Below, piece by piece: positions 53-62,647 of a DNA stretch of 64,000 nt. The stretch covers positions 32,178,001 through 32,242,000 of the forward strand of contig OZ024759.1 in the NCBI GenBank assembly GCA_964016885.1, written 5' to 3'. Each line of letters starts with the position of its first letter. The first letter of the stretch is position 1. The position numbers and the translations under genes were made by a program. Below the pieces are notes generated by a model. It saw nothing but the letters and a program-made list of their open reading frames with translations, was not told the DNA's origin and did not search any database. Source of the DNA: Eledone cirrhosa. Lineage: Eukaryota.

Positions 53-247
53 AACGAAGGAATTGTGGTAAGGAACCAGATGGACCATAACGCACCAGAG
101 TACTCAATACTTAGGGTAGTAGAGTAGGTAATAGGAAATGGTATGACTCCGACGACAGAGCTCAAGCCGTTTCGACGGCTACTTCTAGTCCAGAAATAGC
201 CGTCGAAACGGCTTGAGCTCTGCCGTCGGGGTCATACCTTTTCCTAT
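53..247 (-). mobile_element. TA-flanked fold-back element, family A (Penelope-like pLTR derivative)
   Basis: Palindrome 131-186/192-247 around TCGAAACGG plus unpaired tail 53-130 carrying the bulged hairpin (101-126). Flanked by (TA)n. Related copies at 13337 and 61988. Confidence 0.65.
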
Positions 248-268
248 ATATATATATATATATATATA

Positions 269-481
269 TATTAAAATAACAGATTAAAGTTTAAGCAAAG
301 AATCGCTGCTTTCACCCTTAACGGGGTCTTCTGAAACTAAGGGTGAAAGCAGCGATTCTTTGCTTAAACTTTAATCTGTTATTTTAATAAATATTTGCTC
401 TAGGGTTCTTATATATTTGATATATATTTATCCTTATCCCGCCCTCTTTGGATTTTAGTCTTCACATTTATTATTATTACT
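269..481 (+). mobile_element. TA-flanked fold-back element, family B
   Basis: Inverted arms 269-320/338-389 plus tail. The minus strand reads CAGAAGA-CCC-cgttaa-GGG-t-GAAAGC (degenerate hammerhead-like). Related pieces at 4045-4310, 14418-14501, 20443-20587, 50292-50331. Confidence 0.6.
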
Positions 482-570
482 ATATATATATATATATATA
501 TATATATATATATATATATATATATATTAATTCAAAATATTAACAAAATAGATATTCTTGTGCTCAATTA

Positions 571-637
571 TATTTTATTATACATATTTCAGAGGTACTG
601 AGTTAAGTTCAACAGTACGTCCTCATCAGATAAAATA
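571..637 (-). ncRNA. Minimal type-I hammerhead ribozyme motif
   Basis: Reverse complement: TATTTTAT-CTGATGA-ggac-GTACTG-ttgaacttaact-CAGTAC-ctct-GAA-ATATGTAT-A-ATAAAATA (8-bp helix I, helix II, near-palindromic helix III, AUA site). Confidence 0.8.
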
Positions 638-2458
638 AGTTGATGCATGACGTACTCTGACATAGTAGATGGTTAAGATTCAGTCATGGTAGTGATTAAC
701 TTATGACAAAACTCAATATTTATACCCTAATATTGAGAACATGAGATAACATAATACAAACAACAGAGAGGGTGCGTGTAATAGAGTTTAAGAAATAGAT
801 GGCATCAATATAACAATTATAACATTTTTTTATTTTTAAAAACTACTGGAGAAAAAGGGTGGAAAGGAAAGCATAGAGGAAGAAACAGCTGATGTGATAA
901 TATATTCAGTAGGTGGCTTGAAAAAACAGATGAAAGATGATTAAAGAGAGAGAGACAAAGGGGAGTAATTTATGTTCAAGTTTATATACAGATTTCCATA
1001 TATGCAACACATGTCCAAATTAATATAGTTGGCGGTTAAATTTCCAAATATTTAATTTAAGTTATTTCAGAGCAATGAATAATATTTTAGGTTGTAAAAG
1101 TTAATAGGTATTTGTATTAATATTATAATTATGTTTAATTTCTAAAATTCAAATTTTATGAAAACAAATTTGATGTATTCACTGAACCTTGTTTAACTTT
1201 TAAATATATATATATATATATATATATATATGATGGCTGCAAACTTTGCTAAGTGTATTGCAATCGCTTGGCAGATTACAGAAAATGGTCACTTTTAGGC
1301 TACGGCCAACCACACGAACCTGTAACATCCTGAACAAGCAATGACTGTGCTAGGAAGGTTTCTTTAAGTGGGGAAAGGCCTTGCACGCGACCAAACCCAC
1401 TCTCTGAGCATCGAAAACACATAATTATTATACTATTACACACACACACACACACATATATATATGGTGCGTTTGTCTGCATGTATTATATATATATAAT
1501 GTTTTTTTCACCCTTGTTTCAGTCAATAGACTGTGGCCATGCTGGGGCACCGCTTTGATTATGTATAAGTACGCATTGTCAGGCATTCATGCTGCATTCG
1601 CACATACACAATATATATATATATAAATATAAATATATATATATACACACATGTATATCAAACGTAACTTCATAGCGTGTAATTCACTGTAAGACATCTA
1701 AAACAAGCACCAATAGAAAACAAACACGCCACCACCACCACCGACACTACTACACCACCACTACCACCACCACCACTACCACCACCACCACTAATACCAC
1801 CACCACCACCACAATGAGGTAATATCTCTCCTTTGATGATAGAATCCAACTCCAGTCAACCGACATAAAGTTGGTGGATATAAAACTGGGAAGAAGGTAT
1901 ATCAAAGAGGCGGGGTGGGGGTGATATAAAAAACAAACACTGGTATACATATATATATATATATAAACACACACACATATATACAAATATCTTTCTCTCT
2001 ATACACACACATACAGACATTCAAATCTCTCTCTCTTCCCTTCTCTCTCTCTCTGTGTGTCTCTCTCTCTCTACACACACACACAAACACACACACACAC
2101 ACACACACACACACACACACACACACACATATATATATATATATATATATATATATATATATATATATATATAAGAGAAAATGTAGGAATATTAAACAGA
2201 AAAATAACTCTCACCACAGTTGATTGTTGTAAATAATAGCTTAGAAAGAACCGGTATCAGAATGACTACATTCTCGATAGTTTATATAGAATATTGAGTG
2301 TGTGTGTGTATGGTTGGCGGCTGAGAGGAATGAATACTCAATACCGAAGTAGATTTTTTTTTAATATTCATTTTATTAAGGCTGAATAGTGAGTCTTGTT
2401 ACTCTGGAGTTTTACCTGTTTACAAACCTGTAATAAACAAGCGAAACAGAGTAATGAT

Positions 2459-59360: not shown

Positions 59361-59524
59361 TCATCTTACATTAAAAGAGTCGGCCATTTTAACCATAGGA
59401 TGAACATTTTCCACAGAAACACTCCGAACAAAATATTAATACCAAAATATTAATAGTTGTAATAAAATTCCTCATTATTGGTATCTTGGAAGTAGCTAGA
59501 TATTCAATACATTATATAGTAGAT

Positions 59525-59712
59525 GTGCGTGGCCTAGTGGTAAGTGTGTTAGATTTACGGTCATAATGATAATGTTGAGGGTTCGATTGCTGGACTGGAT
59601 TGGGTGCGGTGTTCTTGAGCCAAACTTTTCATTTCATGTTGCTCCAGTGTATTCCGCAGAAAATAAGTACCAGCAGTAATTGGGGGTTTAACCCTGCGAT
59701 GGACTGGTGTCC
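59525..59712 (+). mobile_element. Older CORE-type SINE
   Basis: A box TGGCCTAGTGG, B box GGTTCGATTGC, TTCTTGAGCCAAAC core, CCCTGCGATGGACTGGTGTCC tail. Confidence 0.75.
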
Positions 59713-59771
59713 ATGAAATTAACGTGATAGGAGACCAATCAAATGGGGGAGAACGTTCTATCTATCTATCT

Positions 59772-60013
59772 ATCAGCCTGTAGGTTGAGGAAAAAGAGAG
59801 GAAAGGGGTACAAACTCTTCGTACTCCTGGAGATGAGGGTGCACATTTTTTCGGGGGTATGTGTTACCCATATGAAATGTCTCCCCCTATTGGGGAAAAT
59901 CGATTCATTTTTAAATTACATTGGTGATAGAATTTTACACGTTTTTATTGTATGTAAACTTCCCCCTTTGTATTTGTCCCCTTCTTTTGTGCCCCTGTGG
60001 CTAATAAAGAAAC
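59772..60013 (+). mobile_element. Tx1-like LINE 3' UTR stub inside (TATC)n
   Basis: Matches 17416-17666. (TATC)n on both sides. Confidence 0.85.
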
Positions 60014-61743
60014 ATATCTATCTATCTATCTATTTATCTATCTATCTATCTCTCTACCTATCTATCTATATATATATATCTATGTATATATTTATCTATC
60101 TATCTAGTTATTTATCTATTTAGTTGTCTATCTATCTATTTATTTATCCCCCTCTCTCTCTCTCTCTCTCTCTCTCTCTCTCTCTCTCTCTCTCTCTCTC
60201 TCTCCCCGCACACACACACAGCGTGTCCAGTAAATAAAACACAGATTACCAGTTGCACTTCTATTCTCACGTTAGTGGTTCTCACCTTAAGAGGTAGTCT
60301 CAAAGAGAATTATGATTGGACACCAGCAGAAATCATAGCCAGAACAGTAAAACATTATCACCGTAAACTGAAAGAAAGGCAGCCATTTTCGTCGATATAT
60401 TTTGATGGAATTGTCCACAGATAGAAGTTGTATCGCATCCGAAAGAAAAAATAACTACAACAGTAAAAATACTAAAATTGTATCGATCTAATAAAATTAC
60501 TCATTATCGATATGTATCAATGCTGAAATTGTCCATGCAATAACATATACTTCTAATGTTAACTTGTGGTGTGGTGTATTGTGATGTGTGCTGTTATGTA
60601 TTATGGTGTGATGCTATGTATTGTTGTGTGGTATGGTGCTGTTGTGTATAGTGGTGTTGGGTGGTGTGGTGCTGTGTGGTGTTGTGTTGTGTATAGTGGT
60701 GTGGTGTGGTGTTGTGTGGTGTATAGTGGTGTGGTGTACTGTAGTGGTGTACTGTACTGTGTGGTGTGATGTGGTGTGGTGTGGTGTGGTGTGATGTATT
60801 ATGATGTGATGTATTGTGGTGTAGTGTGGTGAGATGAGGTGTGATGTGGTGTAGTGTGGTGAGATGAGGTGTGATGTGGTGTAGTGTGGTGTGGTTTATT
60901 GTGGTGTAGTGTGATGTGGTGTGGTGTATTGTGGTGTGGTGTGACGTATTATGATGTCATGTAGTGTGGTGAGGTGTGGTGTATTGTGCTGTAGTGTGGT
61001 GAGGTCAGGTGTTGTGTGGTGTGGTATGGTGTTATGAGGTAGATCTAACATTCACTTCAGTAGTGTATTTTTCTGTGGTGTATTGTTGTGTAGTGTGGTG
61101 TATTGTGGTGCTGATGGTGGTGTTAGTGATGGTGGTGATAGCGGTGATAGTCGTGATGGTGGCGGTGGTGGCGGTGGTTGTGGTGGTGATGGTGATGCTG
61201 GTGATGGTGATAGTCTGGTCTTGGTGGTAAAAATAATGCAAGAATAATGGCCGGAAGCGAAGACAATATCACAACAAATTGAAAATATGACAGCAATTTT
61301 TCCCCAAGAGATGAAACTCACCACAGCCATACTTTATCCCTTAACAACAACAATAAAAACAACAGCAACAACTACAACTACAACACTATCAACAATAGCA
61401 ACAACAGCAACAACAACAACAATAACAACAACAACAACAACAACAACAACAACAACAACAACGACAACAAAGTATTAAGAGATGTAATGAAATTCTTCAT
61501 TATCAATATCTTGCAAGATTTGACAGAGATGAATGGTACGTTCCTAGATATTGAATAGACTGTGTGTGTATATATGTGTATATATATATATATATAGATA
61601 TATGTATATATTATACATATATAATATATATATATATATATATATATATATATATATATATATATATATATATATATATATATATGTATATACTATACAT
61701 ATATAATATATATACATATAGATGTATAGTGTATATATATACA

Positions 61744-62647
61744 TCTATTAATCTGCACTGTATTCTGTATTTTTTCTTTTCTATTTTGTTGTTGTTCAGG
61801 AGAAGGGGGGGGGGGGGTCTAAAGAAAAAATCTCAGCTTGTGGCGTTAAAAAAAATGGCTGATTTTTACAATGTTCTCTTTAACTTTCGGTAATTTTAAT
61901 ATTCATTCACTCCCTGTATGGTATAGTATGGTATAGTATGGTTCATATGATGTCTTGTTAGTGGGACTACTTCGTATATATATATATATAGGAACGAGTA
62001 GGACCCCGACGGCTGAGCTCAAGCCGTTTCGAAGGCTAATTCTGGACTGAATGAACATTTTTCATTCAGTCCAGAATTAGCCGTCGAAACGGCTTGAGCT
62101 CAGCCGTCGGGGTCCTACTCGTTCCTATTACCCACTCTACTACCCTAAATATTGAGTACTTTGGTGCGTTATGGTCCATCTGGTTCCTTACCACATTTGC
62201 TTCGTTATATATATATATATATATATATATATATATATATATATATATATATATATATATATATATATATAACGAAGCAAATGTGGTAAGGAACCAGATG
62301 GACCATAACGCACCAAATATATATATATAGATATAAATATAGATATATACAATATACATGTATATGTATAGTGTATATATCTATATTTATATATATATAT
62401 ATATATATATATATACGAAGTAGTCCCACTAACAAGACATCATATGAACCATACTATACCATACTATACCATACAGGGGGTGGACCAATATTAAAATTAC
62501 CGCAAGTTAAAGAGAACATTGTAAAAATCAGCCATTTTTTTTCACGCCACAAGATGAGATTTTTTTCTTTAGAAACTCACCTCCCCCCGCCCCCTTCTCC
62601 TGAACAACAACAAAATAGAAAAGAAAAATACAGTGAAGATTAATAGA
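61744..62647. mobile_element. Inverted repeat pair of about 230 bp enclosing (TA)n and a nested family A element
   Basis: Arms 61744-61974/62416-62647. Nested palindromes at 61988-62128 and 62160-62317. Confidence 0.8.

What the first reader, a model, noticed from the sequence alone, without database searches (positions are those of the whole stretch)
131..62128. Short inverted arm of most fold-back elements ends a few nt upstream of the bulged hairpin
Seen: elements are asymmetric, with a long arm carrying a tail and a short inverted arm. The paired region ends 4 nt from the hairpin at 131/126 and 62128/62133, 3 nt at 4415/4411, about 5 nt at 13416/13411, about 7 nt at 389/397, about 10 nt at 49389/49378 and 37503/37513, 18 nt at 21275/21256 and about 36 nt at 22893/22930. 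In these copies it never includes the hairpin. Established: inverted, truncated pLTRs are characteristic of PLE insertions, and PLE RTs are relatives of telomerase RT. Inference: the hairpin defines a preferred site where cDNA synthesis starts or stops, analogous to a template-boundary element.
Basis: partly seen in the sequence, partly recalled or inferred. Interest (0 to 1): 0.78.

Follow-up and report, generated by a model that had tools for sequence, protein, structure and literature searches.

The report
Twin RNA hairpins set retrotransposon starts
In one group of jumping genes, the two outer ends of each folded-back insertion lie a few bases in front of two matching bulged-hairpin sequences that relatives in other organisms also carry, and these hairpins likely tell two copying enzymes where to start on one RNA.

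Summary
Observation confirmed and extended. The fold-backs are insertions of seven Penelope-like families with Hydra-clade motifs. In 218 pairs the tail-less arm ends 0-12 nt 5' of the hairpin in 185 and includes it as a true end in 3. New here: a second copy of the motif (RCTC-stem-loop-stem-UH-GAGY) lies just beyond the tail, before the AUG, in five families (variant in a sixth; none found in the seventh). The tail-bearing arm ends 3-6 nt before it. Two hairpins precede the ORF in 20 of 27 distant relatives (shuffled 0.2%). Unbiased pairs: 52 tail plus tail-less, 0 tail plus tail. Either arm can reach further 5' (54 vs 54), so the short arm is not copied from the long one. Best reading (0.75): each hairpin positions one target-primed start just 5' of itself; the tail is the inter-hairpin interval. 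The 'stop/template-boundary' reading fails: hairpin 1 is read through in 366 of 431 tail arms. Two starts flanking the tail are published for a Poseidon element; I found no report of this motif. The scan earlier noted fold-back Penelope copies in another genome, without it. No biochemistry was done here.

The parts
54..247 (-). Family A fold-back: tail-bearing arm 186-54 (RNA sense on minus), tail-less arm 186/192-247 (sense on plus)
102..125 (-). Hairpin 1, family A; tail-less arm ends 5 nt 5' of it (131)
269..480 (+). Family B fold-back; hairpin 1 starts at 397 (3' stem decayed); tail-less arm ends 7 nt before it
3718..3911 (-). Family C tail-bearing arm with hairpin 1 at 3797-3778; partner arm uncertain
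4041..4305 (+). Family B fold-back; hairpin 1 at 4222-4267; tail-less arm ends 2 nt before it
4327..4612 (-). Family C fold-back; hairpin 1 at 4410-4391; tail-less arm ends 4 nt before it
13339..13476 (-). Family A fold-back; hairpin 1 at 13410-13387; end 5 nt before it
20439..20585 (+). Family B fold-back with decayed hairpin 1
21194..21378 (-). Family D fold-back; hairpin 1 at 21255-21237; the two arms carry different subfamily variants near the end; true end about 8 nt before the stem
22342..23067 (+). Family E fold-back; hairpin 1 at 22930-22963; outlier end 35 nt before it (family mode 4)
26074..26142 (-). Family D remnant: both outer ends kept, middle including hairpin 1 deleted
37355..37574 (+). 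Family F fold-back; hairpin 1 at 37513-37533; end 6 nt before it; 13-bp target duplication
48598..48795 (+). F-related fold-back; hairpin at 48750-48770; tail-less arm ends about 66 nt before it (counter-example)
49295..49773 (-). Family G fold-back; hairpin 1 at 49377-49353; end 4 nt before it
56950..57127 (+). Old family D-like fold-back with decayed hairpin
61988..62205 (+). Family A fold-back; hairpin 1 at 62134-62157; end 5 nt before it (62128)
62272..62317 (-). Tail-only family A piece that stops near the 3' base of hairpin 1

Best explanation
These fold-backs are insertions of Hydra-type Penelope-like retrotransposons whose 5' leader carries two copies of a bulged hairpin motif, and each hairpin likely positions one reverse-transcriptase start 3-6 nt 5' of its own stem. 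Shown by sequence: the leader order is hammerhead-like core, hairpin 1, spacer, hairpin 2, AUG. The tail-less arm ends just before hairpin 1 and the tail-bearing arm just before hairpin 2, each usually at a 3-5 nt TAT-type match to the (TA)n target. Insertions almost always pair one arm of each kind. Both arms usually carry the same subfamily alleles. Inferred: the endonuclease makes a staggered cut about 13-15 bp apart; two protein copies, each bound to one hairpin of the same uncleaved RNA, extend the two 3' ends towards the RNA 5' end; the two cDNAs are joined head to head, often where they would run off a start site 60-180 nt upstream. This gives the mini fold-backs. Long or full copies would need a tandem read-through RNA, a circular RNA or a template jump. 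The 'tail' is then simply the interval between the two hairpins.
For: Hairpin 2 lies just past the tail and before the ORF start in E, C and G, in A (2 of 3 pattern hits) and in B (375 genome hits; all 100 listed share the junction apart from point variants; ATG 38 nt after the stem). Modal tail ends lie 3 (A, B, C), 5 (E), 4-6 (G) and 6 (D variant) nt before it. Tail-less ends: 185 of 218 within 0-12 nt of hairpin 1. A microhomology-only null is rejected in 6 of 7 families (P 2e-6 to 6e-33; D P=0.08). Unbiased 940 kb: 52 tail plus tail-less, 0 tail plus tail, 3 tail-less pairs, 1 partial, against 12.5 tail plus tail expected (P 7e-7). Arm reach is symmetric: 54 / 54 / 112 similar of 220. Allele concordance within a copy is 0.81-0.95 against 0.50-0.68 shuffled in six families; B had only 4 comparisons. 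Target duplications are 12-15 bp in 7 of 10 informative copies. Distant relatives: two or more hairpins before the ORF in 20 of 27, antisense 0 of 27, shuffled 0.2%, spacing mostly 57-83 nt; 4 informative ends lie 2, 3, 4 and 7 nt before a hairpin. With no pairing demanded, the pair beside the bulge is Watson-Crick in 70 of 74 (48 C-G, 22 U-A). In vitro, a Poseidon PLE starts at two internal sites flanking the tail on uncleaved sense RNA and nicks and extends both strands (PMC11167929).
Against: No protein-RNA binding, RNA folding or initiation was measured here. Hairpin 2 was not found for family F (zero hits). In family D it is a bulge-less variant seen in 2 loci, one with a mismatch (zero hits). 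The hairpins are weak (0 to -8 kcal/mol in short windows), and folding energy does not favour the sense strand (25 vs 41 of 74). In C, D and E only 16/60, 17/63 and 27/53 tail ends score 0-7 nt, because strict alignment stops at subfamily variants. Only 10 of 165 copies were informative for target duplication and no shuffle control was run. 15 of 218 tail-less ends lie more than 12 nt away. A few copies have clearly discordant arms (L026, window 21275, L183, L047), so one RNA is not obligatory. The Poseidon paper reports no homology between primer and start site, whereas here a short TAT match is usual.
Confidence: 0.75

Rival explanations
1. The hairpins mark processing sites rather than RT docking sites. 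The RNA would be cut just 5' of each hairpin to give two 3' ends from which RT starts, or the endonuclease would resolve a DNA intermediate at the extruded hairpins.
For: This predicts the same end positions. Craig 2021 suggests that the tail results from EN-mediated resolution (PMC8557442). The Penelope EN needed the tail in DNA, as cited in PMC11167929.
Against: One cut per RNA would give arms from separate molecules and no strict one-of-each pairing, whereas tail plus tail pairs are 0 of 56 and alleles agree within copies. The Poseidon starts were internal on unprocessed RNA.
Confidence: 0.1
2. An antisense RNA template with self-priming at the inner junction; synthesis runs outward and terminates at the hairpins. 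This is the first reader's 'stop' reading joined to the self-priming idea of Arkhipova 2013.
For: The motif is quasi-palindromic and folds on either strand. Self-priming on an antisense template was proposed for head-to-head palindromes (PMC3846280).
Against: Outer ends carry target microhomology and target duplications. One arm would have to pass hairpin 1 and the other stop there in nearly every insertion. Embedded wobbles are G-U 4, A-C 0 on the sense strand (weak). Sense RNA worked in vitro for Poseidon.
Confidence: 0.07
3. Snap-back: one cDNA folds on itself, copies itself, and stalls at hairpin 1 as at a template boundary.
For: It explains the inverted arm and the allele concordance; 12 of 431 tail arms do stop at the hairpin's base.
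Against: The tail-less arm reaches at least 8 nt further 5' than the tail arm in 54 of 220 pairs, in one case 667 versus 138 nt, so it holds sequence absent from its supposed template. It does not explain hairpin 2.
Confidence: 0.04
4. Ends simply fall at TAT/ATA matches to the (TA)n target, and the hairpin is incidental (for example a translation or transcription signal).
For: Modal ends do sit at TAT-type matches; families B, D and F use two neighbouring such sites.
Against: Only 1-3 of 7-29 such sites per family are used. Both ends are tied to the same motif, and the motif is duplicated clade-wide.
Confidence: 0.04

Closest known systems
Hydra clade of C-terminal EN+ Penelope-like elements (Craig et al. 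2021, PMC8557442)
   Same: RT plus C-terminal GIY-YIG; RWR/RWK, DKT, CxCx5C linker, CxxC and CxH around the conserved E and N; (TA)n targeting; hammerhead-like core in the pLTR; partial tandems, inverted copy, tail.
   Different: The word searches in the paper found no 'hairpin' or 'stem-loop' (0 occurrences each), and it attributes the tail to EN resolution. Tails here are 62-136 nt, not 30-40. Its own consensus files carry the motif unremarked: both hairpins open Hydra-1_Ajap, and hairpin 1 lies near the 3' ends of Hydra-2_Amil and Hydra-2_Ajap (read by eye).
Poseidon element PAc of the green anole (Frangieh et al. 2024, PMC11167929)
   Same: Two internal RT starts flanking the tail; both strands nicked and extended; uncleaved RNA used; synthesis runs to the RNA 5' end; AT-rich target.
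   Different: Different clade. Starts lie inside the ORF in an 'AC-rich stem loop'; no duplicated cis motif is named; no primer homology is reported; coupling of the two starts in one insertion was not shown.
L1 twin priming (recalled; no call)
   Same: Two primers on one RNA give a 5' inversion.
   Different: In L1 the second site is opportunistic and the first is the poly(A) end; here both sites are internal, fixed and marked by structure.
Telomerase template-boundary element (established knowledge)
   Same: An RNA stem next to the copied region in a related RT family.
   Different: It lies 5' of the template and stops synthesis; these hairpins lie 3' of the start and hairpin 1 is read through.
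Non-LTR retrozymes (bioRxiv 10.64898/2026.07.22.740005; PMC4209133)
   Same: Short non-autonomous hammerhead-bearing units derived from pLTRs. L291 (about 260 nt) and L280 (about 300 nt) are such units and keep both hairpin positions.
   Different: The text I read describes the ribozyme only, not initiation hairpins.

Membership tests
EN+ Penelope-like elements | Single ORF with RT and GIY-YIG endonuclease linked to the pLTR end | tested here: met
   ORFs 0.55-1.0 kb upstream of the A, B, E and G ends; N-terminus after hairpin 2 in B, C, E, G. Pfam was weak: GIY-YIG E=0.026 in 1 of 5 pieces, below the cut-off. D has only an N-terminal fragment; no ORF was found for F.
EN+ Penelope-like elements | pLTR from partial tandems, inverted 5' copy, tail at one end | tested here: met
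   Tandems L271, L272; 52 tail plus tail-less pairs
EN+ Penelope-like elements | Hammerhead motif in the pLTR | tested here: inconclusive
   CUGANGA...GAAA cores read in C, D, F, G and variant cores in A, B, E. No hammerhead family among the 150 of 278 Rfam rows listed. Cleavage not testable.
Hydra clade | RWK-type motif and DKT | tested here: met
   RWR and DKT in B; DKT in A; RWR in C and E
Hydra clade | CxCx5C linker; CxxC and CxH flanking the conserved E and N | tested here: met
   A (L031) and B (L290)
Hydra clade | Insertion into (TA)n | tested here: met
   Microsatellite flank at 213 of 230 tail-less ends
Hydra clade | Absence of the CCHH motif | not tested
   No alignment to reference PLE endonucleases was made
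Hydra clade | Placement in the RT phylogeny | not tested
   Reference PLE proteins were not available as tool sequences
Neptune clade | CX2-5CxxC linker | tested here: not met
   The linker is CxCx5C in A and B; my first label 'Neptune' was dropped
Template-boundary element | Lies 5' of the copied template and halts RT | tested here: not met
   It lies 3' of the arm end and is read through in 366 of 431 tail arms

The most novel reading that the evidence does not exclude
Hydra-clade PLEs use a duplicated RNA 'origin': a protein dimer binds two bulged GCUC/GAGC hairpins on one mRNA leader and fires both reverse transcriptases at once from the two ends of a staggered cut. This single rule would explain the tail, the head-to-head inversion and the flood of mini fold-backs. 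If Poseidon and other clades use analogous paired stems, it is the general PLE mechanism, and a two-hairpin cassette would be a portable signal for inserting upstream RNA into (TA)n.
Probability: 0.55. Interest if true: 0.85.

Novelty: new variant of a known kind. Interest (0 to 1): 0.74.

Why it matters
How PLEs make their tail and inverted ends is stated as open in PMC8557442 and only partly answered in PMC11167929. A small, covarying, duplicated cis motif that predicts both insertion ends to within a few bases turns this into direct mutagenesis tests, and gives a candidate RNA ligand for a sister enzyme of telomerase. It also gives a rule for annotating element boundaries. These insertions are abundant: 52 pairs in 0.94 Mb, of the order of 10^5 per genome if extrapolated from a non-random sample.

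Tried and rejected
Rfam: none of the 150 listed rows reached a gathering score; all were generic hairpin or microsatellite matches, and 128 lower rows were not shown. Pfam: nothing above cut-off. Neptune label: dropped. Idea that the two arms generally come from two RNAs: rejected by concordance; the one-sided allele differences in D and G are best explained by choosing loci on the long arm. Idea that inner ends mark the hammerhead cleavage site: rejected, as arms usually run past it to the 5' side of the core or beyond. Hairpin 2 searches for D and F: zero hits. Early endpoint scripts slipped into or stopped before AT-rich flanks; negatives were inspected by eye and recounted. The family D pairing register was off by one base and is not used. 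Sequencing runs: no RNA holder listed; no reads were laid. Homodimer prediction on residues 1-300 of a relative: no verdict. Folding energy as a strand test: uninformative. Supplements of PMC11167929: file 2 held no text, file 3 only run lists, file 1 was not opened, the GenBank file was unreadable; its figure of the stem-loop could not be seen and may bear on novelty. Supplements of the bioRxiv preprint were not requested.
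Full report
Setting. The window lies in a 3.0-Gb, (TA)n-rich genome and has no long PLE ORF. Its fold-backs fall into seven families, A-G, defined from window copies. I fetched 30 loci per family by searching with the tail-bearing arm, so the partner arm's end was free to vary. I also fetched 940 kb of sequence chosen without regard to content: 150 kb beside the window and 790 kb spread over chromosomes.

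Observation. The nine sites check out, with three distances corrected downward. Fold junctions differ from copy to copy while outer ends are fixed, so the ends are set anew at each insertion. Of 218 pairs, the tail-less arm ends 0-12 nt 5' of the stem in 185, at -1 in 10 and beyond 12 nt in 15; 4 are alignment slips and 4 include the hairpin, of which 3 are true ends. Modes are A 5, B 2 and 7, C 2-4, D 4, E 4, F 0 and 4, G 4. Dropped before counting: 43 pairs and 12 from tandem-selected loci. A family-blind scan found the motif beside an outer end in 41 of 184 fold-backs, against 1-4 in five controls. Ends sit at TAT-type matches to the target, but only 1-3 of 7-29 such sites per family are used; that null fails in six families and not in D (P=0.08).

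Identity. [quoted passage not shown] The proteins carry RWR, DKT, CxCx5C, CxxC-E and N...CxH. These match the Hydra-clade description in PMC8557442 (section 11 read), not Neptune. No tree was built.

The motif. On the sense strand it is RCTC, an inner stem, a variable loop, the stem's partner, a U-H bulge and GAGY, often followed by RCT. The outer pair is A-U in A, C and G and G-C in B, E and F, and A-U in D. The pair beside the bulge is U-A or C-G. In 74 distinct instances from distant relatives, found with no pairing demanded, that pair is Watson-Crick in 70; the inner part is 6-36 nt long. Variable spacing with covarying pairs argues for a folded single strand rather than a double-stranded DNA site. 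The energies are modest and do not pick a strand.

The second hairpin. In tandem E copies the bases just past the tail are a second copy of the motif, followed by the ORF. The same holds in C and G (one locus each), in A (2 of 3 hits) and in B (375 hits, control 0; ATG 38 nt after the stem). D shows a bulge-less variant in two loci. F gave no hit. The pattern searches demanded the motif, so their weight lies in the single shared junction and the ORF that follows; C, E and G were found without that demand. Modal tail ends lie 3 (A 63 of 94, B 52 of 67, C), 5 (E 25 of 53), 4-6 (G 28 of 42) and 6 (D 13 of 63) nt before hairpin 2; in C, D and E many rows score further away because the strict alignment stops at variants. 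So both arms obey one rule, and the tail (62-136 nt here) is the distance between the two sites.

Generality. A protein search gave 301 relatives at about 40% identity. An alignment of 23 of them retrieved 78 metagenome loci, forming 63 clusters at 80% identity. Of 27 clusters with the N-terminal motif and at least 130 nt upstream, 19 have two hairpins, 1 has three, 5 have one and 2 have none. The antisense strand has two in 0 of 27, shuffles in 0.2%, and spacing is 57-83 nt in 19 of 20. In 18 of 47 clusters with downstream sequence a hairpin follows a hammerhead-like core by 45-69 nt. Four informative ends lie 2, 3, 4 and 7 nt before a hairpin. By eye, the published sea-cucumber consensus Hydra-1_Ajap begins with both hairpins, a second sea-cucumber and a coral consensus carry hairpin 1 near the 3' end, three others show variants or no clear match.

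Mechanism tests. (a) Coupling: in unbiased sequence there are 52 tail plus tail-less pairs, 0 tail plus tail, 3 tail-less pairs (one misclassified) and 1 partial; 4 tiny pairs were left out. Independent choice predicts 12.5 tail plus tail (P 7e-7). In search-selected loci a few tail plus tail pairs do occur. (b) Independence of synthesis: the tail-less arm reaches at least 8 nt further 5' in 54 of 220, the tail arm in 54, and 112 are similar. This rules out snap-back copying for at least 54. (c) One template: concordance at polymorphic sites is 0.81-0.95 against 0.50-0.68 shuffled, with a few strongly discordant copies. (d) No stop: 366 of 431 tail arms run at least 12 nt past hairpin 1 and 12 stop at its base. 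(e) Staggered cut: duplications of 12-15 bp in 7 of 10 informative copies out of 165, with no control. (f) Inner ends pile up at family-specific walls, for example A 135 of 196 arms at 60-71 nt, D 65 of 117 at 58-69 and G 28 of 78 at 165-176, and weakly in C. The walls lie 5' of the hammerhead-like core at initiator-like sequences (my reading; motif recalled) and may be transcript starts. That is not shown.

What is known. PMC11167929 (main text parts 1-3 of 4 read; supplements 2 and 3 opened): a Poseidon PLE nicks and extends both strands, starts at two internal sites flanking the tail in an AC-rich stem-loop, uses uncleaved RNA, and is predicted to be a dimer. PMC8557442 (passages, section 11, supplement parts 1, 2, 52, 53): tail, inverted copy, Hydra clade; the mechanism is called open. 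PMC3846280 (passages): head-to-head palindromes read as self-priming on antisense RNA. PMC4209133 (parts 1-2 of 4): hammerheads in pLTRs, opposite-strand pairs 100-700 bp apart, circular-template idea. bioRxiv 10.64898/2026.07.22.740005 (parts 1-3 of 5): retrozymes derive from pLTRs. None of the text I read describes a duplicated initiation hairpin. Nine searches turned up no such report, but subscription papers and Repbase notes are outside the library. By eye, the published PAc template also has a stem-loop just 3' of its +111-118 start; this is a lead, not a test.

Verdict. The part not found in print is the twin hairpin that predicts both ends across the clade, and the one-of-each coupling. 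Positions, conservation and coupling are shown. Protein binding, the dimer, the RNA fold and the transcript start are inferred.

Noticed in passing
window 47542-47930, 14571-15010, 57400-57975: Three other fold-back families show the same fixed tail and tail-less ends in (TA)n but lack this motif; their tails hold other small stems. The first is tied to a different PLE ORF (L035).
   Followed up: partly
window 28138-29456: A 48-bp minisatellite (27.5 copies, 98% matches) resembles 29632-29695, which carries a hairpin-motif hit at 29661-29644; possibly a satellite born from a pLTR end.
   Followed up: no
window 61831-62559: A 144-bp inverted pair (95%) encloses the family A element and an identical tail-only piece at 62272-62317; found only here, possibly a local inverted duplication around (TA)n.
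   Followed up: partly
L291 (G000:C1:27008389-27011438) and L280 (G000:C1669:35000-44900): Non-autonomous units of about 260 and 300 nt keep the hammerhead-like core, both hairpin positions and the first codons of the ORF. L280 is one full unit with a 10-nt terminal repeat, as a circular or tandem template would give.
   Followed up: partly
window 21194-21378; L026; L183; L047: The two arms carry different subfamily variants at several sites, suggesting occasional use of two RNAs or later gene conversion.
   Followed up: partly
window 150-190, 320-345, 22835-22870: Families A, B and E have altered hammerhead cores (CAGAA.. or CCGAAGA in place of CUGANGA) yet amplified widely.
   Followed up: no
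window 570-760: A C-related arm with a hammerhead core and a variant hairpin (TCTC/GAGT).
   Followed up: no
window 2445-2641, 10912-11996, 19814-20214 and others: An abundant SINE-like repeat of about 190 bp, in places in tandem or itself folded back.
   Followed up: no
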